Positions 17,294 to 50,385 of a DNA stretch of 64,000 nt are shown here, piece by piece. Location: positions 30,383-94,382 of the forward strand of contig CAWIYH010000004.1 in assembly GCA_963840225.1 (NCBI GenBank), given 5' to 3'. This DNA comes from an uncultured Acidobacteriota bacterium. GTDB taxonomy: Bacteria; Acidobacteriota; Vicinamibacteria; Vicinamibacterales; CAVVIG01. Position 1 is the stretch's first letter; each line of letters begins with the position of its first letter. A program made the position numbers and the translations under genes. Under the pieces are notes generated by a model that was not told the DNA's origin, ran no database searches, and saw only the letters and a program-made list of their open reading frames with translations.

Positions 17294-17459
17294 TTCGCCT
17301 CGCCCGCCTCCGCCATTCGTTCTGCCGGCCACCGGGCGCCAGCCTGTTTGCCAATTGTTGTCACATGGACCCGCCGACTGACAGAAAGCGTCAATTGGAA
17401 GCCCACGTTATTTCGATGCAAGCGCCAGTGTATCAATAGCTTAGCGGAAAGTCTCCTTC

Positions 17460-17475
17460 CGGCACGCCATTCGCA
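17460..17475 (+). promoter_or_regulatory. sigma-54 (-24/-12) type promoter candidate upstream of the pilin gene
   Basis: cGGCACGccaTTCGCA has correct GG-N10-GC spacing. It shares the motif GGCACG-N3-TTCGCA with the site at 35403-35418. It lies about 35 nt upstream of the pilin start. Confidence 0.45.
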
Positions 17476-17510
17476 CCTCATCGGTGACGTCAAGGACCGT
17501 AAGGAGAGTG

Positions 17511-18047
17511 GTGCGACTCCAACCTGCGCAGGCTCGCGGCTTCGCTCTGATCGACCTGGTGTTCGTCATAGGCGTGATCGGAGTGCTTTCGGCGATGGCG
17601 CTGCCGCGCCTGATCACGGCACGTCAGGCCGCCGGTTCGGCTTCCGCGATCGGCTCGCTCCGCACCCTGAACAGTTCGCAGCTCACGTTCGCGTTGACGT
17701 GCGGCTCCGGCTTTTACGCGCCGGATCTGGTGACGCTCGGTACGCCGCCGCCAGGCAGCAACGAGCCGTTCGTCACCAGCGGGCTTGGCGACGCCAACGT
17801 CGTGACACGATCCGGATACGTCATCCAACTGGAGGCGACCGCGTTCAGCGGAGCGCCTCCGAGCTGCAACGGACTCGGAGGCGGGATGACCGGCCAGGGG
17901 TTCAGGGCCGCCGCCGATCCGGTCGAGCCGAACACCACGCGCCATTTCGCCACGAACGCGAACACCCTGATCTTCGAGAACGATTCGACGTTGTATGCCG
18001 TCATGCCCGAGATCGGCGAGCCGCCGATCGGACACCTCCTCCGCTAA
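17511..18047 (+). CDS. type IV pilin-like protein (prepilin-type N-terminal cleavage/methylation domain)
   Basis: From GTG 17511 (or 17508) behind AAGGAG, a short basic leader MRLQPAQARG precedes FALIDLVFVIGVIGVLSAMALP (G/F cleavage site, acidic residue at +5 is D). The track ORF starts at 17484. Confidence 0.65.
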   Translation: MRLQPAQARGFALIDLVFVIGVIGVLSAMALPRLITARQAAGSASAIGSLRTLNSSQLTFALTCGSGFYAPDLVTLGTPPPGSNEPFVTSGLGDANVVTRSGYVIQLEATAFSGAPPSCNGLGGGMTGQGFRAAADPVEPNTTRHFATNANTLIFENDSTLYAVMPEIGEPPIGHLLR

Positions 18048-39221: not shown

Positions 39222-39307
39222 GCCGGGGTGGCGGAACTGGCAGACGCACAGGACTTAAAATCCTGGGTCCCGCAAGGGGCGTGTGGGTTCGATGCCCGCC
39301 CCCGGCA
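39222..39307 (+). tRNA. tRNA-Leu (anticodon TAA)
   Basis: Hand-folded. Acceptor GCCGGGG/CCCCGGC plus discriminator A. Anticodon arm CAGGA-CTTAAAA-TCCTG. Long variable arm (GTCCC-GCAA-GGGGC). T arm GTGGG-TTCGATG-CCCGC. Length 86 nt. Confidence 0.9.
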
Positions 39308-39441
39308 CTTTCTCAGGTGATTTGAGGCGTTCTCAGGGCGAGTGCGGACGGCCTGCGATAGGCCGCCATTGACTCTGGGTGAGCCAGCCTGCGGCCTGCC
39401 TCGAGAACCGTGTACTTCGACGCCAAGACCAAAGGGCTGGC
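39285..39441 (+). repeat. direct repeat copy 1 (157 bp: tRNA-Leu 3' end plus 134 bp downstream)
   Basis: Identical to 46574-46730 except for one position (39354 T versus 46643 C). Confidence 0.95.
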
Positions 39442-39708
39442 GCTCCGCGTGTCGCCGCGGGGCTCCAGGACCTGGGCGTTCGTCTATCGGAGCGGTGGAC
39501 GGCCGCCACGGCGGCTCGAGGGTTCAGCGAGGACGTCATCGGTCGCGCTCTGAACCACGCGCGCTATACGGTCACGGCCCGGCACTCCATCAAGCACGGG
39601 TACCAAGTCGAGGTCCGGCACGCGCTCATGACCTGGGACGGGGACTTGGCGGATATCGTCGCCGGCCGCGAAGTGAGCCCGCGCGCGGTCCTGCCGTTCC
39701 GGCGATAG
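39365..39708 (+). pseudogene. P4-type tyrosine integrase, internally deleted (Arm/DUF4102 N-terminus joined out of frame to the extreme C-terminus)
   Basis: The frame from GTG 39410 gives VYFDAKTKGLALRVSPRGSRTWAFVYRSGGRP (DUF4102-like). A second frame gives GFSEDVIGRALNHARYTVTARHSIKHGYQVEVRHALMTWDGDLADIV (integrase C-terminal helix pattern). The ~300-aa catalytic core is missing. Confidence 0.65.
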
Positions 39709-40121
39709 ATGTCGTTTCCCGGCGCGCGGCGTGGCGCGATGCGTAACGCGCCCGGCGCTTCGGATGTGGTCGAGGCAAGTGATGCCGTCCCTTACGCCAG
39801 CAGCGCTCTTTGCTGCACGCGAGGCGATCATGCTCTCGGCACGAGGGCTGGCTCACTCGGAGCCAACCAGGAGGCGACGATCAGCTCGTGACCTGAGGCA
39901 CGTGGGTTAGAGTCCCAGCACGTGGTGGAAATTCGATAGCGGCCCCTCGGTAGACAAACGAAGCGGCCATCGCGCATCTTTCCGTGAGTTCTCTCTGGCG
40001 GGAGACGAAAGCACGGAGGTGTTGAGACGATGGCCCCGCGCGCCGCCAATTTCGATCGTAATCGCGCCGTCTTCTCGGCAGAGCCGGGCATTGTCGGCAT
40101 CCGCCGTCGGGGTCAGGAGCG

Positions 40122-40195
40122 AAGGGGGAGCGACCCCTTGCTACGCGGCGGCGCGGCGTGCCCAACGCCGGCCCCGGCCGGGGTCGCTCCCCCTT
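40122..40195. repeat. 16-bp perfect inverted repeat pair, each arm itself a small hairpin
   Basis: AAGGGGGAGCGACCCC (40122-40137) and GGGGTCGCTCCCCCTT (40180-40195) are separated by 42 nt. They lie just upstream of the IS91-type transposase remnant. Confidence 0.8.
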
Positions 40196-40349
40196 CGTGC
40201 GTCGGGCGACGGTCCAGACCGTCGTTGCAGGAATCGCACTCTCCAGCTCGCAGTCCTCTTGCAGATTCTGCAATCCCCACGCGACGCCGAGCGATTCTGA
40301 GCCGGGCCCGACGCGCGGCGGGCTGGCACCGTCCCTGCGCCCGTCGCGG

Positions 40350-40819
40350 CGTGCCCCCAGGGCCCTCGGTCTATCAGCGTCGGTCGCCCGGCGACACCGT
40401 CCTGTACCGCATCGTCCGTGACCCCTTCGAGACGTTCCGCGCCCAGGCCGCGGGGTTGCGCGACCGCGAGGGCCTGCCTCAGTTCGTCGAGCAGGCATTC
40501 CGCAATTTCCTCCGTTGCGGCTGGCTGGCCGGCGGCTTCGCGCGCTTTCGTTGCGCGGGCTGCGGATTTGACCGCCTCGTGGCTTTTTCGTGCAAGGGGC
40601 GCGAACTGTGCCCGAGCTGTGGGGGGGCGCCGGATGGCTGAGCGGGCCGCACACCTTGTCGACCGGGTCCTGCCGGACGTGCCGATCCGGCAGTGGGTAC
40701 TGAGTGTGCCGCACCGCCTCCGGTACCGACTCGCGTGGGACCACGATCTCTGCCGGGCCGTCGCCGGCGTGCTGGTCCGGAGCGTCCTTCGCGTGCTGGG
40801 CGATCGGCCACGCGACGAC
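40350..40819 (+). pseudogene. IS91-family (Y2/HUH rolling-circle) transposase, 5' part: zinc-binding domain, frameshifted, interrupted by IS21
   Basis: VYQRRSPGDTVLYRIVRDPFETFRAQA...GLPQFVEQAFRNFLRCGWLAGGFARFRCAGCGFDRLVAFSCKGRELCPSCGG, then a frame change to RRMAERAAHLVDRVLPDVPIRQWVLSVPHRLRYRLAWDHDLCRAV. Confidence 0.75.
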
Positions 40820-40924
40820 TGGGCGCGCCGCTCAGAAACTAGGCCATTCGCCGCTCAGAAAGTAGACCACCTGAGGGTGTGACGGCGAGCTTGCCGGATC
40901 GAGGGATCCGGGGTTCGCTGGAGG

Positions 40925-42406
40925 ATGCTCAGGATGGATCAAGTGCATGTTGTCCGGCACAAAGTGCTGGTGGAGGGGCGGACGCAGCGGGCGGTCGCCC
41001 GTGAGTTGGGGATCGCGCGCGTCACCGTCCGTAAGTACTTGCATCAGGCGGTCCCGAGTCGAAAGCCGGCGACGCCGCGACCGCGGCCGGTCTGGGATGC
41101 GGTGGCCGATCGGGTGCAGGCGCTGCTGGCCGATTCCGTGCGATGGACGGCCGGCAAACAGCGGCTGACCGCCACACGGCTGCACGAGATGCTGCTGGCG
41201 GAAGGGAAACGCGTGGGCGTGACGGTCGTCAAAGACGCGGTCGCCGAGTGGAAGCGACAGCGGCGAGAGGTGTTCGTCCCGCTGACGTATCGGCCGGGTG
41301 ATCTCGCCGAGGTCGATTTCTTCGAGGTCCTGGTCGACATCGACGGCACGCGGCGCAAAGCGTGGCTCTTCCTGATGCGGCTGATGTACTCCGGTCGCGA
41401 CTTCGCCTGGATTTACGAGCGCCAAGATCAAATCAGCTTTCTCGACGGGCACGTCCGCGCCTTTGCGCATTTCGATAGCGTGCCCGCGCGCGTCGCGTAC
41501 GATAATCTGCGCGCCGCGGTCGTGCGGATTCTGGTTGGCGGCGCGCGCACGCTGACGCCGCGGTTCGAGGCGCTGACCTCGCATTACCTGCTCGAAGCGT
41601 GCTTCTGTCGGCCCGGCGAAGGCCACGACAAAGGCGGCGTCGAGTCGCGGGGCAAAGCCATCCGGCAGCAAGCGCTCGTCCCCATTCCGAGCGGGCCGAC
41701 GCTCGCGGCGATTAATGCGACGCTGCTGGCGCAGATGGATGCGCGGCTCGACACGACCCGGGATGCGGCCGGTCGCACGATCGGCGACCGCTTCACCGAG
41801 GAGCAGCGCCAGTGTCGGCGGGCGCCCACGCCGTTCGCGCCGGAGGCCACGACGTTCGCCACCGTGTCGCCGCGCGCGCTGGTCCGGCTCGAAGGCGCGG
41901 TCTACTCGGTGTGGACGCGCTGGGTCGGCCTCGATCTCGTCGTGCGCCTGGGCGCCACGATGGTGACCCTGGTGGGACGCGACGGCGTCTGCGTGACGCA
42001 TCCGCGCAAACGCTTCGGCGAGCGCTCGATTGATTATCGACACTACCTGGCGGAGCTCGCGCGCAAGCCGCAGGCGGTGCGCCAGGTGCTGCCGGATCTC
42101 CTGTGGGATCTCGGGGATCCATTTCCGGCGGTCTGGGCGCAGCTGCACGGCGCGCACGGGCCGCGGGAGGCGGCGCGGCACTTCGCCAAAGTCCTCGGCC
42201 AGCTGGAGACACACGGCGCCGCCGTGGTCGTGCCCGCGCTGCGCGTCGCGCTCGCGACTGGGGCGCCGCTGCTGCTCGCGCTCACACCGGCCCGATCGCC
42301 CGTCCGTGTCGCGCTTGACGCGCTGCCGGCGCCCCTCCGTGAGATCGACGTCGCGAGCGGCTGCGCCGCCGACTATGACGCTTGGCTCCTGGGCGGCGTC
42401 GCATGA
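40925..42406 (+). CDS. istA: IS21-family transposase IstA
   Basis: 493 aa. N-terminal HTH (GRTQRAVARELGIARVTVRKYL). DDE region (GDLAEVDFFEVLVDIDG...MYSGRDFAWIYERQDQISFLDGHVRAFAHFDSVPARVAYDNL...CRPGEGHDKGGVES). Confidence 0.9.
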   Translation: MLRMDQVHVVRHKVLVEGRTQRAVARELGIARVTVRKYLHQAVPSRKPATPRPRPVWDAVADRVQALLADSVRWTAGKQRLTATRLHEMLLAEGKRVGVTVVKDAVAEWKRQRREVFVPLTYRPGDLAEVDFFEVLVDIDGTRRKAWLFLMRLMYSGRDFAWIYERQDQISFLDGHVRAFAHFDSVPARVAYDNLRAAVVRILVGGARTLTPRFEALTSHYLLEACFCRPGEGHDKGGVESRGKAIRQQALVPIPSGPTLAAINATLLAQMDARLDTTRDAAGRTIGDRFTEEQRQCRRAPTPFAPEATTFATVSPRALVRLEGAVYSVWTRWVGLDLVVRLGATMVTLVGRDGVCVTHPRKRFGERSIDYRHYLAELARKPQAVRQVLPDLLWDLGDPFPAVWAQLHGAHGPREAARHFAKVLGQLETHGAAVVVPALRVALATGAPLLLALTPARSPVRVALDALPAPLREIDVASGCAADYDAWLLGGVA

Positions 42407-43170
42407 GCACCGCCACCCTCGCCCGCGATCTCGTCGTCGCGCAGACGCGGGCGTTGAAGTTGCCGGGCGTGGCGCGCACCTTCGAAGCCCTCGCTCGCCA
42501 GGCGCGCGACGCGCACTGGCCACACGAGGATTACCTGCACGAGGTGCTCACGGCGGAGCAGGCCTCGCGGCACGAGTCCGTGATCCGTCAGCGGCTTCGC
42601 GAGGCGCGCTTCCCCGAGGTGAAGACCCTCGACACCTTTGACTTCACGACGGCCGACGGCGTCAGCGCGACGCAGATTCATACGCTGGCACGTGGCGAGT
42701 GGGTCACGGCGCCGGAGAATCTGATCTTGGCCGGCCCGATCGGGACCGGCAAGACGCACTTGGCGATCGCGCTCGGCGTGGAAGCCACGAAGCAGAAACG
42801 ACGGGTGCTCTTCACCCGGGCCGCCGACCTCGTGCGTCAGCTGATTGAAGCCCGCGATGCCCGCGAGCTGACCCGGCTGCAGCAGCGGCTCCTGCGCGTC
42901 GACGTCCTGATCGTCGACGAGCTCGGGTTTGTGCCGTTCGACCGCATCGGCGGCGAGCTGCTCTTCAATCTGATCACCGATCGGTACGAGCGGCGGGCGA
43001 CGGTCGTGACCACCAATCTGGCGTTTGCTGAATGGGTGACGGTGTTCGCCGGCGACGAAAAACTGACGACCGCGCTTCTCGATCGCTTGGCGCATCACGC
43101 CACCGTGCTGACGACGAAAGGCAAAAGCTATCGCATGCGAAAGCGCCGCGGCCGCGAGGAACCCTCGTGA
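42403..43170 (+). CDS. istB: IS21-family helper ATPase IstB
   Basis: ATGA overlap with istA. Walker A is LAGPIGTGKTHLA and Walker B is LLIVDELGF; it also has TTNLAFAEW. Confidence 0.9.
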   Translation: MSTATLARDLVVAQTRALKLPGVARTFEALARQARDAHWPHEDYLHEVLTAEQASRHESVIRQRLREARFPEVKTLDTFDFTTADGVSATQIHTLARGEWVTAPENLILAGPIGTGKTHLAIALGVEATKQKRRVLFTRAADLVRQLIEARDARELTRLQQRLLRVDVLIVDELGFVPFDRIGGELLFNLITDRYERRATVVTTNLAFAEWVTVFAGDEKLTTALLDRLAHHATVLTTKGKSYRMRKRRGREEPS

Positions 43171-43386
43171 TCCGTCGAGACTCGATGGCTCTTATCGAGG
43201 CGTACAGGTTCGCAGCCTTCTCTGGGCGCTCGCCGGCGATGCCGGCTCGCGCTGTCCTCACGACGACGTACGAAGGGGGGCCGTTTTAGTGTCGCTGCGT
43301 CAGAAACCGGTAGAATGAACGTCCTTCAGGTGGCCTACTTCTCGAGCGGCGTACTGGCCTAGTTTCCGAGCGGCGCAACCAACGAC

Positions 43387-44453
43387 GGCGTCGAGGCGGC
43401 CGCGGCGGTGCGGTGGGGTCTTTGTAAGCGAACGTGGGCAGCGAACCTTTCACGCCGTCGGTCGGCTGGGTGCGCTCGACGCCGAAGAGGTGCTGGCGGC
43501 TGTCGAGGCGATCGTCAGCCGTCGGCTTGGCGCGAGCACCGAATTGACCGACGACGTCCCGGCTGGCGATCCATGGGGCGACGAGGCGCAGGTGATCGCG
43601 GGTCTCGCGGCCGCCTCCGTACAGGGGCTTGCGGCGCTTGGGCCGCGCTCCGGTCGCGGTCCGGCGCGTCTGGGATACATCCTCGGGCCGGGAGCGGCCG
43701 CTGGCTTGGTTCCCGGATCCTGCGCGGCGCGGGCTAACGGCTACAGCTTCAGTGGGGGTGGGGCCCCACCCCCACGCGCTCTTGCTCCTCGGCTTCGCTC
43801 GTCGCAAGGGCCGCAGACGCTCTCCACGCAGGTGTCGTCGTCCCGGCCGGGCAACGCGAGCGGCTGGAGCGGGTGTGGCGGTACGTGCTGCGTCCGCCGG
43901 TGGCGATCCACCGTCTCCACCTGACGGACGATGGACGGGTGCGCCTCTCGCTGCGGCACCCATGGAGCGACGGGACGACGGACCTTGTATTCACGCCGCT
44001 GGAGCTCCTCGAGCGCTTGGCCGTGCTGCTGCCACGGCCGCGCATCAACCTGATCTTGTACTTTGGCGTGCTCGGAGCGCGGGCAGCAGCGCGGGCGCAG
44101 GTGGCCGGCCGACGTGGGCCCGAGGCGGACCACGGGCCGACGACAGACGCGCAGAGCCCGTGGCGGCCTCTGGCGACCGCGCCGAGTCCGCAGGCGGCCG
44201 CAACCGGTCGTGGGCGACGCTGATGCAGCGGACGTTCGGCCTCGACGTCCTGGCCTGTCCGCGCTGCGGCGGGCGACTTCGGCTGATCGCACTGATCGAG
44301 CGAGCGGCCGTGATCACGCGGGTGCTCGGTCATCTGGGGCTGCCGGCCGAAGTGCCGAAGCCGCGTCCAGCGCGATCGCCGCCCGACGAGCTTTGGTTCG
44401 ACGAATTGACACCAGTCGGGGACCAGGTCGACGTGTTCATGCCAGCTTCGTGA
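43387..44453 (+). pseudogene. IS91-family transposase, 3' part (multiple frameshifts and deletions)
   Basis: The fragments lie in three frames: AEEVLAAVEAIVSRRLG; ANGYS / LHAGVVVPAGQRERLERVWRYVLRPPVAIHRLHLTDDGRVRLSLRHPWSDGTTDLVFTPLELLERLAVLLPRPRINLILYFGVLG; and WATLMQRTFGLDVLACPRCGGRLRLIALIE. The HUH region is not found. Confidence 0.7.
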
Positions 44454-44743
44454 CGGACGGCCGGCCGTGGCGATAGCCAGGCAGGCGCCGCAAGGCAACC
44501 AGGTCCGCAGTGGGCGCGTGAGGCGCGCGATCGCGCCTGCAGCGAGCGACCGAGAGGGCTAATCTGCGTTGTGTCAGAGGAGAGAACAAGGGCTGTGTCA
44601 GAGAGAGAACGGGGCAGGGAAGGGGCGACCAGGTCCGAGAATGCGCGTCATGTTCGCTAATGCGGCCCATCCTCGATCCTCCTATCCTCTATCCTCTCCT
44701 CTCGACAATGTGGCCGGGCGCTGCAAGTCGTTCGTCTGAGCCG

Positions 44744-45473
44744 CTAGACTGCCAGCCGCCGCAGCCCGTCGGCAATCCGCCGACATGCGGACAGGATCCG
44801 GTAGTCCTCCGCATACCACGCCGACAGGTTCTCGATGGCCTGTGGCTCGAGATGCCGGTCGAGGCCGGCCGGAGCCCGGTGTGCGGCCATCTCGTCGGTC
44901 GGAAGCGCGACATCCGGACATCCGAGTACCCGTTTGAGCGCGTCGAAGTCTTCGGTCAGCCGTTCCTGGAATCCGATGAACAACAGACCGCTGCGGCGCC
45001 GTTCGAGGGTACTCGACGGAGCGGAGCCAGTGTGCGAATCCGTCCCTGACGTGCTTGATGCTGCGCATGCCGTCCATTGCCGCCAGACGGACGTCGGGAT
45101 CCGGCGAAGACAACGACAAGGCCAGATCGTTGGGCGTGTCGAATCGTCCGAACGCCATCGCCTCCTCGGGGCTCCACGGAAAATGGTACCGCGGCGCGCC
45201 CTGGCGCTTCCTGCTGTGGAAGCCGCTGATGAACCGGGACATCGGATCCCGCAGAAAGAAGACCGCGTATTCGCTGGCAGGCACGTCCGCCAGCGTGAAC
45301 CTGTGCGGATGCACGGCCAGGGTGTAGTGCGCCCCCTGGGGCCGATGCTCCAGTGCCGTTTTGATCGCGGTGCCGCCGGTCTTGCCGATGTGCAACAGAT
45401 GAGCCGTGGGTGGGCGCCACGGTGCACGGCGGCTGAACCTGTTCCAGATGTTCGCGTTCATGAGGAGCCTCAC
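44744..45473 (-). pseudogene. sulfotransferase-family gene, frameshifted
   Basis: The N-terminal frame (from 45473) gives LLHIGKTGGTAIKTAL...FFLRDPMSRFISGFHSR. The C-terminal frame (to 44744) gives LLFIGFQERLTEDFDALKRVLGCP...LSAWYAEDYRIL. The switch is at about 44975-45010. Confidence 0.65.
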
Positions 45474-45484
45474 TCGCCGCCCTG

Positions 45485-45733
45485 CTAGTGCGTCAGAAAC
45501 CGGTCAAGCACGGCGATATCGTGCTCGCGCGTGCCGACGAAGCGGAGGGCGGCAACCCAGGTCGCGATCGAGTGCTCCTGGCCCGACGGCTCCACGCGCA
45601 CAACCTCCACGCGCGTCGAGAACACGTCGTGGTCGAGCACGACGTCGAACCGGGCGGACTGACCGCGATCCAGGCGGCTGTTCGTCTTGACGAGGGCGCC
45701 GCTGGATCCGATATCGACCAGCCACGCGCTCAC
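45485..45733 (-). CDS. short PilZ-like protein (possibly N-terminally truncated)
   Basis: 82 aa from a GTG start. WLVDIGSSGALVKT...ARFDVVLD...RVEVVRVE fits a PilZ beta-barrel pattern. The RxxxR part is not present downstream of a start codon. Confidence 0.4.
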   Translation of the reverse strand: MSAWLVDIGSSGALVKTNSRLDRGQSARFDVVLDHDVFSTRVEVVRVEPSGQEHSIATWVAALRFVGTREHDIAVLDRFLTH

Positions 45734-45781
45734 GATGGTGGCTCGCCCATCGCGAGCGTCGCAGGTGCGGTCCCCAGAATG

Positions 45782-46337
45782 TCAAATCGCTTCCCCTGAC
45801 GCCGATCGATCACCGGATTCGTCCCAGGCAGCATCGAATTGGTGTGGCGGCGTGCAAGTTCGTAACCAACGCGGAAGGTGCGCGGGCACGAACGACTCCC
45901 GGCCTTTCACTGTCGCGTAGTTTCTCTTTCCCGCACAGCCGATGCCGGCACCGGACGAACCGGGGAGGGCCCGACTGGTGCCGGCATGCGACAACAAAAG
46001 TCGACGTGCCGCACCACTTCGACGGCTGCCGGGCTTCGCGGCTGAGACGGGCCCTCGGGCCACAGTGGTGTCAGACGAGAGAGCCTCGGTCGTGACGAGT
46101 TCCACCGACCGCCCGCAAGCGCGCTTCGAGCAGCTCCGACAATGCCATGAAGCGTGCGTACGACTTGGCGCCGGGTGCGAACTGAACGAGCATGTCGACG
46201 TCGCTGTCGGCGCGCGGCTCCCCGCGGAGCACCGATCCGAAGAGCGCCAGCCGCATCACGCCAAGCGCGCGAATGTCCTATTCGCATTCGGCCAGGCGCT
46301 CGGCGGCCTGCCCGTAGCTCAGCACTGGCGTCGGCAT
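45782..46337 (-). pseudogene. decayed MNT-type nucleotidyltransferase plus possible HEPN (DUF86-like) remnant
   Basis: MPTPVLSYGQAAERLAECE*DIRALGVMRLALFGSVLRGEPRADSDVDMLVQFAPG carries an in-frame TAG. The family continuation VELVTTEAL is in a different frame. Further downstream, RTCTPPHQF fits a loose Rx4-6H motif. Confidence 0.45.
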
Positions 46338-46540
46338 ACCCACAGCGTAGCACGGCGCCCGGCACGAGGCATGGCGGGTACGTCCCGGCTCGATTCGGAC
46401 GCGACCTCGCACGGGAGCCGTGTTCTGGCTAACGGCCCGACGAAACTCAGTGCTCGTCCAGGCGGGCCGCTGCAACAGATCGACCAGTGATTTCGGTGCG
46501 ACCGACGTTTCAGCGCTCATCGCGCGATTGCGCGCGAACC

Positions 46541-46596
46541 GACTTAGAATTCTGTGGATCGCAAGATCCGTGAGGGTTCGATGCCCGCCCCCGGCA
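46541..46596 (+). other. 3' half of a second, diverged tRNA-Leu-like sequence (anticodon loop to 3' end); not a complete tRNA
   Basis: GACTTAGAATTCTG-TGGATCGCAAGATCCGTGA-GGGTTCGATGCCCGCCCCCGGCA. It is collinear with the tRNA-Leu and about 70 percent identical upstream of the repeat, with compensatory changes keeping the variable-arm helix (GGATC/GATCC). There is no acceptor or D-arm 5' half. Confidence 0.6.
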
Positions 46597-46730
46597 CTTT
46601 CTCAGGTGATTTGAGGCGTTCTCAGGGCGAGTGCGGACGGCCCGCGATAGGCCGCCATTGACTCTGGGTGAGCCAGCCTGCGGCCTGCCTCGAGAACCGT
46701 GTACTTCGACGCCAAGACCAAAGGGCTGGC
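46574..46730 (+). repeat. direct repeat copy 2 (157 bp)
   Basis: See copy 1. It includes the first 11 codons of the integrase frame and ends abruptly at 46730. Confidence 0.95.
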
Positions 46731-47143
46731 TCGCCGGCGGCGCCGTCGCGCCGCCAGCCTCACCCGTGACGACATGCATTCTGGCCCGGGCTGTCCCCTT
46801 CCTCCCGGCTTACATCCTCGTCCGACCGACGCTCGACAACGCGAGTCGGCTCCTCGCGGCGCTCGAGGCCTTCGGGTTTCCCGTCACCGAGCTTAGTCCC
46901 CACGCGATCGTAGATCGTCGTCGGATGCTGCAGATGGGCGTGCCGCCGGTGCAGATCCACGTGATGAGCGCGATCAGCGGGGTCGCGTGGGATGATGCGT
47001 GGTCGGATCGCGTCAGCGGCCCCCTCGGGAGCCACAGCGTTCACTTCTTGGGCCGCGAGACGTGCCTGCGTAACAAGCGGACGGCCGGTCGTCCCAAGGA
47101 CCTCGCCGACATCGACGCGCTCGAGCCCGGTCGCGACGTGTAG
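46731..47143 (+). pseudogene. nucleotidyltransferase-fold protein (DUF6036-like), 5'-truncated at the repeat junction
   Basis: ILVRPTLDNASRLLAALEAFGFPVTELSPHAIVDRRRMLQMGVPPVQIHVMSAISGVAWDDAWSDRV...FLGRETCLRNKRTAGRPKDLADIDALE matches a family that normally begins about 35 aa earlier with GGxAV...DxD. No own start codon is present. Confidence 0.5.
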
Positions 47144-47253: not shown

Positions 47254-48297
47254 TCACGAACCAGACGTGCGCGGTCTGTTGTGGTCCGTCACGCCGACGG
47301 CTTCGAATACCGGACGCAGCGCCTGGCGATACGACGCGACGAGGTCGTGATAGCCGAGCCTGACTACTGAAAACGGAAGCGGTGCAAAGTGCGCCGTCCA
47401 TGCCCCGGAAAACCGGATGAATCCCGCGGTCGCTGTGAGCGGCGTCTGCCGATAGTCGACGATTGTTCTCAGTGCGCTACAGCGCGGTATGTCCGGCAGC
47501 GACACATTGACCGTCCGACGCACGTCCTCCGACAATCGGCGGTAAGCGTTCAACGAAAGATTCATCACGAGTAGCACCAGCCGTTCCGGCTGCAGCGTTT
47601 CGAACGCCTGCCGGCATTCCCACTCGAGGCCGGATCCCGATCCGACCCTGACCACAACGAGCGCCGCGGTCCGCATTTGGTCCTGAACGACCGCTCGCCA
47701 CGCCTGGTCGGACGCATACATGCGGGCCGCTCCGGGGACCGGGAGCGGCTCGCCCGGCTGGCCGATTGCGACCAGCGTGCCAATGGGGCGCAGGGCCTCT
47801 GCCAGATCTTCTTCGTCGGTCGACAGCCCGGTTTGCAGTACTTTGCCCGCGCGTGACGTATCCGAACCGAACGCCCGGAGGTACAGCACCGTCGGGCCCG
47901 ATCGCTGATCCGCGCGCGTCGCCCGCACCGAGCGCCTTGCCTGGAGCCGGCGTCCTTTGAAATGAAGGAGGATGCCCACGATCATCAGGAACGCACCGAG
48001 CAAAGACGCTGGGTTCTCTTCGACATCGCCAAGGACGCCGTACAGAATCGCGCCCACCACGATCGCCGCAATTCCCGCGACCTTCAAGCCGGTGCCAGAC
48101 ACCTGCGTACGCCTCCAGCCGTCGACCCCTCGCAGGCGCCTGCGCGGCTCCCACGCGAGGTCTGCTACACCGGGCCAGCGCAGTCCTGCAGGCTGCGCAC
48201 CGAACGAACCGCTGCGGTCTGAAACCCAGCCACAGATCCGATTCGGTTGGAACATTCCACGGCCGGGCTGACTGACTTCGTTACTGGCAAGTGTCAC
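47254..48297 (-). CDS. uncharacterised two-TM membrane protein with a C-terminal alpha/beta (TIR-like?) domain
   Basis: 347 aa from GTG 48297 (or the ATG at 48255). TM helices are LKVAGIAAIVVGAILYGVLG and LLGAFLMIVGILLHF. These are followed by TVLYLRAFGSDTS...LVAIGQPGEPLPVPGAARMYASDQAWRAVVQDQMRTAALVVVRVGSGSGLEWECRQAFETLQPERLVLLV. Confidence 0.6.
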   Translation of the reverse strand: MTLASNEVSQPGRGMFQPNRICGWVSDRSGSFGAQPAGLRWPGVADLAWEPRRRLRGVDGWRRTQVSGTGLKVAGIAAIVVGAILYGVLGDVEENPASLLGAFLMIVGILLHFKGRRLQARRSVRATRADQRSGPTVLYLRAFGSDTSRAGKVLQTGLSTDEEDLAEALRPIGTLVAIGQPGEPLPVPGAARMYASDQAWRAVVQDQMRTAALVVVRVGSGSGLEWECRQAFETLQPERLVLLVMNLSLNAYRRLSEDVRRTVNVSLPDIPRCSALRTIVDYRQTPLTATAGFIRFSGAWTAHFAPLPFSVVRLGYHDLVASYRQALRPVFEAVGVTDHNRPRTSGS

Positions 48298-48841: not shown

Positions 48842-49356
48842 AGAACCCTCGGAAAGAATGGCGCGCGCTCGTGACGCGCGGAAGCCGGTGGACGCCAGGC
48901 AATTCTACCCCAGCGCCGGACCAGCCGCCTGGCCGACGTTGGGCTGACGTGGCGACGAAACTCGTTGCGGCCCGCTGCTAAGTCTGTGTATGGCTGTTGT
49001 CTGGAACGAAACTGTACCTACAGTGCCGCATCGAATCACCGCACCGCCTGGGGCCTGGAACGAACGCACCTCGGACTCGGTGACATCGGCGACACGCTCG
49101 GCACAGACCTGTGCGGAGACGGGAGCCAACCGTTCGACGCAGTGCCCGTGAACCAGCTGCGCCTCTTCGGACCCGGCGGAGTAGCGTCAAACCGCGAGTC
49201 GGGGATCATCCTCGCCAGCGTTCATGAGCACCGACATCGTTTCGATCCACACGATGCGCTGGTGTGGTGGCGGCACAGACTGCTAGTTTAGAATCCAGGT
49301 GCCGGCGAGGTCGTGTACGGATCGGCGCGCCGCTCGGCGCGCCGCGGGAGGCTGAG

Positions 49357-50385
49357 ATGAACGAATACATCGACGTCACCTTTCGCAAGCCCGATGGCCG
49401 CCGCCTGCGGGTCGCCCGCCAGACCCCCAACGGCCTCGAGTTCGACGAGCGCGATCCGATCGAGCGCACGATCGGCCTCCAGCTGAACGGCCGCAGCGAG
49501 GCCACCCGCCAGCGCATGCGCCGCATCGCGCAGGTCAAGGGCTGGGGCCTCGAACAGTTCAAGCTCAATGTCTCGGTCGAGGACGGCAACCTGGTCCTGC
49601 GCGGCGCGGATCCCGACGCGCTGCCCGAAGGCTTCTACAACCTGCGCGTCGAAGTCGAAGAGGCGCGCACGCGGCAGCCGCGCACGAGCGTCGAGATCGA
49701 GCAGGACGGCCACGCGGAGATCGATGTCGTCGTCGTCGAGGACACCCGCGACGTCGCCGTGGATCTCGAGGAGTGCGATCCCGACATTCGACGCGTGCTC
49801 GACGCCTCGACGATCGACGGACAGGATGCCGCGACGTGGCTCGCCTCGCCGCTGTGGCGTCCCACCCGCAAGGCCTGTCTGCTCAACCTGCTGGCGTCGC
49901 TCCGGTCGCGCCCGAAGCTGTCGGAGTCGCTCATCGGCCACGTCGAGCACGTCTTCGCCGTCTTCAACGACCGCGCCTACATGCGCGTGGACCGGCGCCT
50001 GCTGCCCGACGTCGAGGATCTCGCAAAGGCCGACGACCTGCCGTTCTACCGCGAAGGCAGGCCGCTCGCGCCGATTCACGCGGGCCTGACGAGCACCCTC
50101 CCCGAGCCGCCCGACGTCAAGGCGCGGTTCCAGGGCCTCCTCAGCTTCCGGGGCGAAGGGAAGCCGTCGCTCCAGATGGTCGTTGCCGTGCCGCCCGTCG
50201 ATCTGCCGCACACCTATGCGGAGTTCGATCTCGACGCGGGCAATCCGCTCCAGGACGTCGTCGGCTTCGCCGTGCACATGGGCGAGCTCCTCAGCGGCAG
50301 GCCGACCAATCACCTCGACCTCCGTGAGCGCCTCGCGAAGACGAAGGCGAAGAGCTTCCTGTACTACACCGTCTTCGCCGCGTAG
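49357..50385 (+). CDS. hypothetical protein (342 aa), no recognisable domain
   Basis: ATG at 49357 behind GGGAGG. The composition is balanced and coding-like (MNEYIDVTFRKPDGRRLRVARQTPNGLEFDERDPIERT...YAEFDLDAGNPLQDVVGFAVHMGELL...). Confidence 0.6.
   Translation: MNEYIDVTFRKPDGRRLRVARQTPNGLEFDERDPIERTIGLQLNGRSEATRQRMRRIAQVKGWGLEQFKLNVSVEDGNLVLRGADPDALPEGFYNLRVEVEEARTRQPRTSVEIEQDGHAEIDVVVVEDTRDVAVDLEECDPDIRRVLDASTIDGQDAATWLASPLWRPTRKACLLNLLASLRSRPKLSESLIGHVEHVFAVFNDRAYMRVDRRLLPDVEDLAKADDLPFYREGRPLAPIHAGLTSTLPEPPDVKARFQGLLSFRGEGKPSLQMVVAVPPVDLPHTYAEFDLDAGNPLQDVVGFAVHMGELLSGRPTNHLDLRERLAKTKAKSFLYYTVFAA

What the first reader, a model, noticed from the sequence alone, without database searches (positions are those of the whole stretch)
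39222..46730. tRNA-Leu-anchored mobile-element graveyard bracketed by a 157-bp near-perfect direct repeat
The last 23 nt of tRNA-Leu(TAA) plus the following 134 bp (39285-39441) recur at 46574-46730 with a single mismatch. The repeat is far longer than a normal att core. It includes the upstream region and first 11 codons of a P4-type integrase frame. This is what I would expect if two related integrase-bearing islands had integrated in tandem at the same tRNA and then decayed. The first integrase lost its catalytic core. The second is cut at codon 11 (46730) and fused to a 5'-truncated gene. The 7132 bp between the repeats contain only broken genes plus one intact IS21. The two long identical repeats could still allow RecA-mediated loss of the whole segment.
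Basis: partly seen in the sequence, partly recalled or inferred. Interest (0 to 1): 0.6.

Follow-up and report, generated by a model that had tools for sequence, protein, structure and literature searches.

The report
Decayed tandem island at tRNA-Leu
This is the wreck of a mobile genomic island inserted at a leucine tRNA gene and then duplicated in tandem, which explains the long repeat; it is an ordinary, already well-known kind of structure.

Summary
39285-39441 and 46574-46730 are 157-bp direct repeats with one mismatch, and the first overlaps the 3' end of tRNA-Leu(TAA).

The repeat is a 24-bp tRNA-end att core plus the first 133 bp of an island's left end: the integrase leader and integrase codons 12-30. 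Copy B is preceded by a diverged tRNA fragment running from the anticodon loop to the 3' end. That fragment is the island's own right-end att arm. The same junction occurs in two unrelated Vicinamibacterales-type contigs, and seven relatives show the plain tRNA-plus-integrase form. So copy B is the internal junction of a two-unit tandem array.

The proximal unit is complete but dead:
- The integrase lacks codons 55-342, and its catalytic Tyr is Ser.
- The IS91-type transposase is frameshifted and split by an intact IS21 with a 5-bp target duplication.
- The sulfotransferase-like and MNT genes are broken.

The distal unit is cut after integrase codon 30 and joined to a 5'-truncated, frameshifted nucleotidyltransferase-like gene.

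Both copies share a 63-bp deletion that removes the integrase start codon, and their leaders are 99% identical against about 62% for relatives. They are therefore sister copies of one already damaged element, not two independent arrivals. This is a known phenomenon (tandem accretion at tDNAs), and interest is low.

The parts
39222..39308 (+). tRNA-Leu(TAA), complete. Through 39293 it is identical to the tRNA-Leu(TAA) genes of Vicinamibacterales MAGs, differing only at the T-loop base 39294. No CCA is encoded, unlike island-free tRNA-Leu genes of relatives.
39285..39441 (+). Direct repeat copy A. It consists of the att core (39285-39308: T-stem, T-loop and acceptor 3' strand), the integrase leader (39309-39383) and integrase codons 12-30 (39384-39441).
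39384..39708 (+). Integrase pseudogene of the proximal unit. Codons 12-54 (39384-39508) are joined to codons 343-407 (39510-39708). The ATG and codons 1-11 are removed by a 63-bp deletion whose junction lies at 39383/39384. About 864-876 bp of the catalytic region are deleted. The catalytic Tyr is replaced by Ser (ARHSIKH against ARHYIKH in homologues).
39709..40349 (+). Island backbone segment of unknown function, with no intact ORF. It is conserved at 75-81% with relatives L121, L125, L126 and L127, directly after their integrase genes.
40350..40819 (+). IS91-family (Zn_Tnp_IS91 / Y2_Tnp) transposase pseudogene, 5' part. It is frameshifted near 40630 and interrupted by IS21 at 40820.
40820..43381 (+). 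Intact IS21-family insertion sequence: istA 40925-42406, istB 42382-43170, terminal inverted repeats, and a 5-bp target duplication ACGAC at 40815-40819 and 43382-43386.
43387..44453 (+). IS91-family transposase pseudogene, 3' part (Y2_Tnp C-terminal region), spread over more than one frame.
44591..44694 (+). Diverged copy (72-73%) of a ~95-nt repeat ('R93') that occurs five times in the relative L130. Its nature is unknown.
44682..45473 (-). Sulfotransferase-like gene, probably a pseudogene. The Pfam match is weak and below cutoff, and the similarity is spread over two overlapping frames.
45485..45733 (-). Short PilZ-domain ORF of 82 aa. The profile match starts at position 18-27, so the ORF is probably N-terminally short.
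46071..46409 (-). MNT-type nucleotidyltransferase antitoxin pseudogene, with an in-frame TAG and a C-terminal frameshift. The partner HepT gene that L121 carries is missing here. This is the right-end cargo of the island unit.
46541..46596 (+). tRNA-like fragment running from the anticodon loop to the 3' end. Its anticodon position reads TAG, it has a perfect variable-arm stem, and it lacks the tRNA 5' half. It is the island's right-end att arm, and it starts at the same tRNA position as the fragments in L121 and L127.
46574..46730 (+). Direct repeat copy B: the att core, the leader and integrase codons 12-30 of the distal unit. Everything beyond integrase codon 30 is deleted.
46731..47143 (+). 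5'-truncated and frameshifted gene of a ~150-aa nucleotidyltransferase-like family. Clean homology starts at 46814, which corresponds to family residue ~43. About 21 or more N-terminal residues are absent.

Best explanation
The segment is a two-unit tandem array of one family of tRNA-Leu(TAA)-specific genomic islands. The family carries a P4-type tyrosine integrase and is common in Vicinamibacterales-like Acidobacteriota. The window itself is probably from that group.

A unit reads: att core, leader, integrase, backbone, IS91-type transposase, cargo, HepT/MNT, then a tRNA-like right arm. Integration joins the chromosomal 5' part of the tRNA to the island's copy of the tRNA 3' end. When a second unit recombines at the same core, the internal junction becomes right arm, core, leader, integrase. 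That is what copy B is. The 157-bp repeat is therefore the 24-bp core plus the first 133 bp of the island's left end. It stops where a later deletion removed nearly all of the distal unit and joined it to a broken nucleotidyltransferase-like gene.

Both copies share a 63-bp deletion of the integrase start and a near-identical leader. The array was therefore made by duplicating one already damaged element. The likely routes are att-site exchange between sister chromosomes, or re-integration of an excised circle, with integrase supplied in trans or residual activity. Two independent arrivals are less likely.

What is shown: the anatomy, the homologies, and the shared deletion. What is inferred: the order of events and the recombination route. 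The structure has no function now. The only active part is the IS21, and the two repeats remain a substrate for homologous deletion.
For: - The repeat and the tRNA are confirmed.
- Copy A continues colinearly into integrase sequence, whereas copy B breaks at 46731.
- Copy B's upstream flank (the MNT gene, then a tRNA fragment starting at the anticodon loop) is homologous at 77% over 568 nt to L121. In L121 the same junction runs on into integrase, backbone and the IS91 remnant, which are the sequences that follow copy A in the window.
- L127 has a tRNA fragment truncated at the same tRNA position, next to an intact integrase, but with a different upstream flank. So the boundary behaves like a recombination-site boundary.
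- Seven further loci show the plain tRNA-Leu(TAA)-plus-integrase form: L122, L124, L125, L126, L128, L129, and L123, whose contig starts inside the tRNA.
- The 63-bp deletion that removes the ATG and codons 1-11 is present in both copies. Leader identity between them is 74/75, against 46/74 and 45/74 to L125 and L127.
- The literature describes tandem arrays at tDNAs and accretion of decayed elements (PMC4383910: 125 tandems among 3919 islands; PMC5704250).
Against: - No third att copy marks the far end of the distal unit anywhere in the window, and there is no other integrase of this family. The distal unit is inferred from 157 bp only.
- No close relative of this genome was found, so there is no empty-site or single-copy comparison.
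- In L121/L130 no complete tRNA-Leu lies within 19 kb upstream of the same kind of junction. The claim that such junctions are always internal to a tRNA-anchored array is therefore unproven.
- Gene conversion could mimic sister copies.
- Whether the 5'-deleted integrase was truly inactive at the time of duplication is unknown.
Confidence: 0.8

Rival explanations
1. Two related but independent islands, each with a working integrase, integrated one after the other at the tRNA and then decayed separately. Under this view the near-identity of the 157 bp, including the shared 63-bp deletion, was produced later by gene conversion between the copies.
For: Serial accretion by incoming elements is the commonest route described for tandems (PMC5704250). 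The integrase stretch 39384-39441 is so conserved that it is 58/58 identical even to the unrelated locus L125. Homologous arms that could support conversion across the leader therefore exist.
Against: It needs an extra event. The shared 63-bp deletion and the 74/75 leader identity, against about 62% to other family members, are explained more simply by common descent of the two copies.
Confidence: 0.15
2. An IS91/ISCR-type origin. The IS91-family element next to the integrase produced a circular rolling-circle by-product that carried adjacent DNA. That circle re-entered by homologous recombination and created a partial duplication, as proposed for ISCR1 in complex class 1 integrons (from my own knowledge of that model).
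For: An IS91-family transposase gene lies about 1 kb from copy A, inside the duplicated unit.
Against: - The IS91-type gene is part of the conserved backbone beside the integrase in L121, L125, L126 and L127. It is not a feature specific to this duplication.
- Here it is frameshifted and split by IS21.
- The left boundary of copy B's homology lies exactly at the tRNA anticodon loop and is shared with other loci, which points to an att site and not to an IS end.
Confidence: 0.03
3. Assembly artefact: one of the two 157-bp copies, or the whole 7.3-kb interval, was misplaced by the assembler.
For: Repeats with IS elements between them are typical sites of misassembly. No reads were available to check.
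Against: Each copy has unique sequence on both sides, and the copies differ by one base. Both junction types are independently seen in other assemblies: the A type in L125/L126 and the B type in L121/L127.
Confidence: 0.02

Closest known systems
Tandem arrays of genomic islands at tRNA/tmRNA genes (Islander, PMC4383910; Dehalococcoides ssrA islands, PMC3146451; Klebsiella Asn-tDNA islands, PMC4891358)
   Same: The island sits at the 3' end of a tDNA, with the integrase next to the regenerated tRNA. A displaced or island-borne tDNA fragment lies in direct orientation at the unit boundary, and a second unit follows it.
   Different: The distal unit is reduced to 133 bp beyond the core and has no tDNA fragment of its own. 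Both integrases are dead. The two units appear to be sister copies and not different islands.
CIME accretion (cis-mobilizable elements; ICESt1/ICESt3 family; reviewed in PMC5704250)
   Same: A decayed element that keeps its att sites sits in tandem with a related unit. Formation probably needed an integrase acting in trans.
   Different: No functional partner ICE or IME is present in the window. No conjugation or mobilisation genes are present. Mobilisation was not tested.
P4-type island integrases (Arm-DNA-bind_3 / Phage_int_M / Phage_integrase architecture)
   Same: The remnants match the N-terminal arm-binding domain and the C-terminus of 403-407-aa integrases with this architecture. The gene lies directly downstream of the tRNA and in the same orientation.
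   Different: Only 108 of about 407 codons survive in copy A and 19 in copy B.

Membership tests
tRNA-integrated genomic island with tyrosine integrase | Integrase gene adjacent to the 3' end of a complete tRNA gene | tested here: met
   tRNA-Leu(TAA) lies at 39222-39308. The integrase remnant starts at 39384 on the same strand. The same layout is seen in L122, L124, L125, L126, L128 and L129.
tRNA-integrated genomic island with tyrosine integrase | Direct repeat of a tRNA 3' fragment at the distal end | tested here: met
   A tRNA fragment at 46541-46596 lies in direct orientation, and its core is identical to 39285-39308.
tRNA-integrated genomic island with tyrosine integrase | Intact, catalytically competent integrase | tested here: not met
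   Codons 1-11 and 55-342 are deleted, and the catalytic Tyr is replaced by Ser.
tRNA-integrated genomic island with tyrosine integrase | Excision to a circle, with an empty site in relatives | not testable with these tools
   No conspecific genomes were found, and no reads were available.
Tandem island array (Islander criterion) | Each member has its own integrase gene and its own tDNA fragment | tested here: not met
   The proximal unit has both, although its integrase is a pseudogene. The distal unit has only 19 integrase codons, and no third tDNA fragment exists in the window. The array is inferred from the internal junction.
Tandem island array (Islander criterion) | The internal junction reads: island right arm, core, island left end | tested here: met
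   Copy B reads MNT, tRNA fragment, core, leader, integrase. It is homologous to the junctions in L121 and L127.
CIME (cis-mobilizable element) | Lost integration and transfer genes but retains flanking att sites | tested here: met
   The integrase is dead and no transfer genes are present, yet both flanking cores are identical.
CIME (cis-mobilizable element) | Mobilised in cis or trans by a related functional element | not testable with these tools
   No functional family integrase is present in the 64-kb window. The rest of the genome was not available.
IS21 family | istA (DDE transposase) and istB (AAA+ helper), terminal inverted repeats, short target duplication | tested here: met
   NF033546 scores 222 bits and NF038214 scores 279 bits, both above cutoff. 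The inverted repeats lie at 40820-40846 and 43355-43381, and the 5-bp ACGAC duplication flanks them.
IS91 family | Transposase with Zn_Tnp_IS91 and Y2_Tnp domains as one intact ORF | tested here: not met
   Both domains are present but lie in different frames and are split by IS21. The relative L127 has a nearly intact version.
HepT/MntA type VII toxin-antitoxin | Adjacent intact MNT and HEPN genes | tested here: not met
   Only an MNT pseudogene is present, with a stop and a frameshift, and there is no HepT homology. The intact pair is present in L121.

The most novel reading that the evidence does not exclude
Three of the ten sampled loci of this island family (window copy B, L121, L127) show the attP-like arrangement: right arm, core, integrase. 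One of them (L121/L130) sits in a 2.7-Mb contig with no complete tRNA-Leu within 19 kb upstream. These islands might therefore persist or spread in Acidobacteriota in a way that does not depend on the tRNA. One possibility is long multi-unit arrays of integrase-defective units mobilised in trans. Another is insertion of the circular form by a second route, such as the co-resident IS91-type transposase.
Probability: 0.08. Interest if true: 0.45.

Novelty: new member of a known kind. Interest (0 to 1): 0.18.

Why it matters
Its importance is limited. It documents a family of tRNA-Leu(TAA)-specific islands in Vicinamibacterales-type Acidobacteriota, a phylum whose mobile elements are little described. 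It also gives a clean worked example of how an over-long 'att repeat' arises from a tandem junction followed by a deletion. For annotation, it shows that the 7.3-kb interval and its ORFs are pseudogenes and that only the IS21 is likely to be active. It opens no new mechanistic question.

Tried and rejected
- Exact-protein look-ups of two window proteins (DUF3617 and PilZ/DUF6982) found nothing.
- A genome-contig scan with the PilZ/DUF6982 flank protein found no relative.
- The second genome scan used the tRNA 5' half. It was swamped by Firmicutes, which share that half, and gave only seven Acidobacteriota loci, none syntenic with the window. No empty-site comparison was therefore possible.
- Junction-specific and integrase-specific DNA patterns found nothing in viral contigs, and the junction pattern found nothing in metagenomes.
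- My first reading was that the integrase N-terminus had decayed codon by codon, with two nonsense codons. I rejected it after the DNA alignment showed a single 63-bp deletion, with the conserved upstream TTGAC...GGCTAAC motif retained.
- Walking 10 kb further upstream in the L121 contig found no tRNA-Leu. That relative neither confirms nor refutes a tRNA-anchored array.
- Pfam, NCBIfam and PADLOC gave no family for the ORFs at 46733-47143, 47254-48297 and 49264-50385.
- None of the genes from 46.8 to 56 kb has a counterpart in the related island loci. The extent of any surviving distal-unit cargo could not be set.
Full report
**1. The observation**

ARAGORN and the Rfam tRNA model both place a complete tRNA-Leu(TAA) at 39222-39308. 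A repeat search, a pairwise alignment and a base-by-base comparison agree on the repeat. 39285-39441 recurs at 46574-46730, 157 bp, with a single mismatch (39354 T against 46643 C). Identity collapses from 39442/46731 on. The 23-nt core occurs exactly twice in the 64-kb window even with three mismatches allowed, against none in shuffles.

Weaker homology extends 33 nt further left, to 39252/46541. It covers the anticodon loop and the variable arm. Copy B differs there at 10 of 35 positions, and three of those changes are compensatory pairs that keep a perfect variable-arm stem. Copy B lacks the 5' half of the tRNA.

**2. What lies between and around the repeats**

- **Proximal integrase.** Downstream of the tRNA is the remnant of a P4-type tyrosine integrase. 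Compared with the closest intact homologue (P0029, 407 aa), 39383-39511 encodes residues 12-54 and 39511-39705 encodes residues 343-407. The catalytic region, about 864-876 bp, is deleted. The catalytic Tyr motif reads ARHSIKH where homologues read ARHYIKH.
- **Backbone and IS91-type gene.** A backbone segment follows that is conserved with relatives. Next comes an IS91-family transposase gene (Zn_Tnp_IS91 plus Y2_Tnp), spread over several frames.
- **IS21.** The IS91-type gene is split by a complete IS21-family element at 40820-43381. Its istA and istB score above NCBIfam cutoffs. It has terminal inverted repeats and a 5-bp ACGAC target duplication.
- **Cargo.** Further right lie a weak, two-frame sulfotransferase-like ORF, an 82-aa PilZ ORF, and an MNT-type nucleotidyltransferase gene with an in-frame stop and a C-terminal frameshift.
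- **Downstream of copy B.** The ORF running to 47143 belongs to a ~150-aa nucleotidyltransferase-like family. Clean homology starts at window 46814, which corresponds to family residue ~43. The preceding codons are recognisable only across frames, and the first ~21 residues are absent.

The description 'graveyard plus one intact IS21' is accurate.

**3. Relatives**

No close relative of the host genome could be found. The tRNA is 98% identical to tRNA-Leu(TAA) genes of Vicinamibacterales MAGs. The integrase family is large, with 629 hits at E <= 1e-30, several of them named as Vicinamibacterales.

Seven loci show the plain form, a complete tRNA-Leu(TAA) followed by the integrase: L122, L124, L125, L126, L128, L129, and L123, whose contig begins inside the tRNA.

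Two loci show the copy-B form.
- **L121**, in a 2.7-Mb contig, reads HepT, MNT, tRNA fragment, core, leader, broken integrase, backbone, IS91 remnant. It is 77% identical over 568 nt to window 46076-46626. It then continues into the sequences that in the window follow copy A (39510-39884, 40026-40133, 43457-43685).
- **L127** has a tRNA fragment that starts at the same tRNA position, next to an intact integrase and a nearly intact IS91-type transposase. Its upstream flank is unrelated.

The start of the tRNA fragment at the anticodon loop is therefore a recombination-site boundary. The fragment is the island's own right-hand att arm.

**4. Interpretation of the repeat**

A unit of this island family reads: core, leader, integrase, backbone, IS91-type gene, cargo, (HepT)/MNT, tRNA-like arm. 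A single integrated unit would be followed by native chromosomal sequence after the distal core. In the window, the distal core is followed by the island's own leader and integrase. That arrangement is the internal junction of a tandem array, equivalent to an attP site.

The repeat is long because it comprises the 24-bp core plus the island's left end. It ends at 46730 because the distal unit was deleted from integrase codon 30 onward. Copy A continues colinearly with relatives past that point, and copy B does not.

Left of 39285, copy A is identical to the tRNA-Leu(TAA) genes of related MAGs, while copy B carries the island arm. The exchange therefore took place within 39285-39308, the T-stem region class of att sites in Islander's terms (PMC4383910). 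Island-associated tRNA copies also lack the encoded CCA that island-free tRNA-Leu genes of related MAGs have.

**5. Order of events**

Intact relatives (L123, L125, L127) have a conserved TTGAC...GGCTAAC motif, then about 30 nt, then the ATG and codons 1-11. Both window copies keep the motif but lack the next 63 nt. The junction lies at 39383/39384 in copy A and at the equivalent position in copy B.

The 75-nt leader is 74/75 identical between the two copies but only 46/74 and 45/74 identical to L125 and L127. The integrase stretch inside the repeat is uninformative here, because it is 58/58 identical even to L125.

The simplest reading is that the two units are sister copies of one element that had already lost its integrase start. 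The array would then have arisen by one of two routes: att-site exchange between sister chromosomes, or re-integration of an excised circle next to a resident copy. Either route would need integrase supplied in trans or some residual activity. A deletion then removed the distal unit. The order of the 876-bp integrase deletion and the IS21 insertion relative to the duplication cannot be determined.

A codon-by-codon decay of the N-terminus, which I first inferred from a protein alignment, was superseded by the DNA alignment.

**6. Rivals**

- **Assembly artefact.** This is unlikely. Both copies have unique flanks and differ by one base, and both junction types are seen independently in other assemblies. 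Read mapping could not be done.
- **IS91/ISCR-type rolling-circle origin.** This is unlikely. The IS91-type gene is a conserved backbone component in several relatives, and the duplication boundary coincides with a tRNA att boundary and not with an IS end.

**7. Comparison with what is known**

Tandem arrays of islands at tDNAs are catalogued: 125 tandems among 3919 islands in Islander (PMC4383910). Accretion of decayed, integrase-less elements (CIMEs) with related elements is well described (PMC5704250 and references therein).

This locus works like those systems. By Islander's strict criterion it is not a full tandem, because the distal unit has neither a complete integrase nor its own tDNA fragment. 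The island family itself seems undescribed, but it is a new member of a known kind.

**8. Open points**

- No third att site or far end of the distal unit exists in the window.
- The genes from 46.8 to 56 kb have no counterparts in the related island loci.
- In L121/L130 no complete tRNA-Leu lies within 19 kb upstream of the attP-like junction. That region instead carries an IS66 transposase and five copies of a ~95-nt repeat. It is therefore unproven that such junctions always sit inside tRNA-anchored arrays.

**9. Verdict**

This is an ordinary structure of low interest.

Noticed in passing
window 44591-44694; L130 292-388, 3123-3218, 7711-7803, 11873-11965, 18119-18215: A sharply bounded ~95-nt repeat (CTGTGTCAGAGGAG...GGCCTATTCTCGAT) occurs five times in direct orientation, at 95-100% identity, in the relative contig, where it separates blocks of genes. 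One diverged copy (72-73%) lies in the window between the IS91-type pseudogene and the sulfotransferase-like ORF. There is no Rfam match. Its nature (MITE, promoter cassette or recombination site) is unknown.
   Followed up: partly
L122 534-541: The integrase of this metagenomic relative has TAG TGA exactly where homologues have Gln-Trp (CAG TGG). These are two adjacent single-base nonsense changes in an otherwise well-conserved gene.
   Followed up: no
window 17561-17656: ARAGORN calls a 96-nt 'tRNA-Ala(GGC)' here. The Rfam tRNA model gives no match at E <= 1 in 17300-17900, so it is probably a false positive.
   Followed up: yes
L121 9351-9543; L122 350-420; L124 310-340; window 39383/39384: Independent deletions of the integrase start region recur in this island family: four of ten loci lack the ATG region present in L123, L125 and L127. 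Many copies in metagenomes are therefore integrase-defective.
   Followed up: partly
L061 4850-7415; L128 13373-15717: IS21-family elements related to the window's copy (80% nucleotide identity in L061) lie within a few kb of tRNA-Leu(TAA) in other Acidobacteriota contigs. In L061 the element is on the 5' side of the tRNA, so it is not the same insertion.
   Followed up: no
window 39309; L072 5949; L104 207; L085 2889: tRNA-Leu(TAA) genes in MAGs where no island follows encode the 3' CCA. The island-regenerated copies (window A and B, L121, L124, L125, L127) do not, so the tRNA must rely on the CCA-adding enzyme after island integration.
   Followed up: partly
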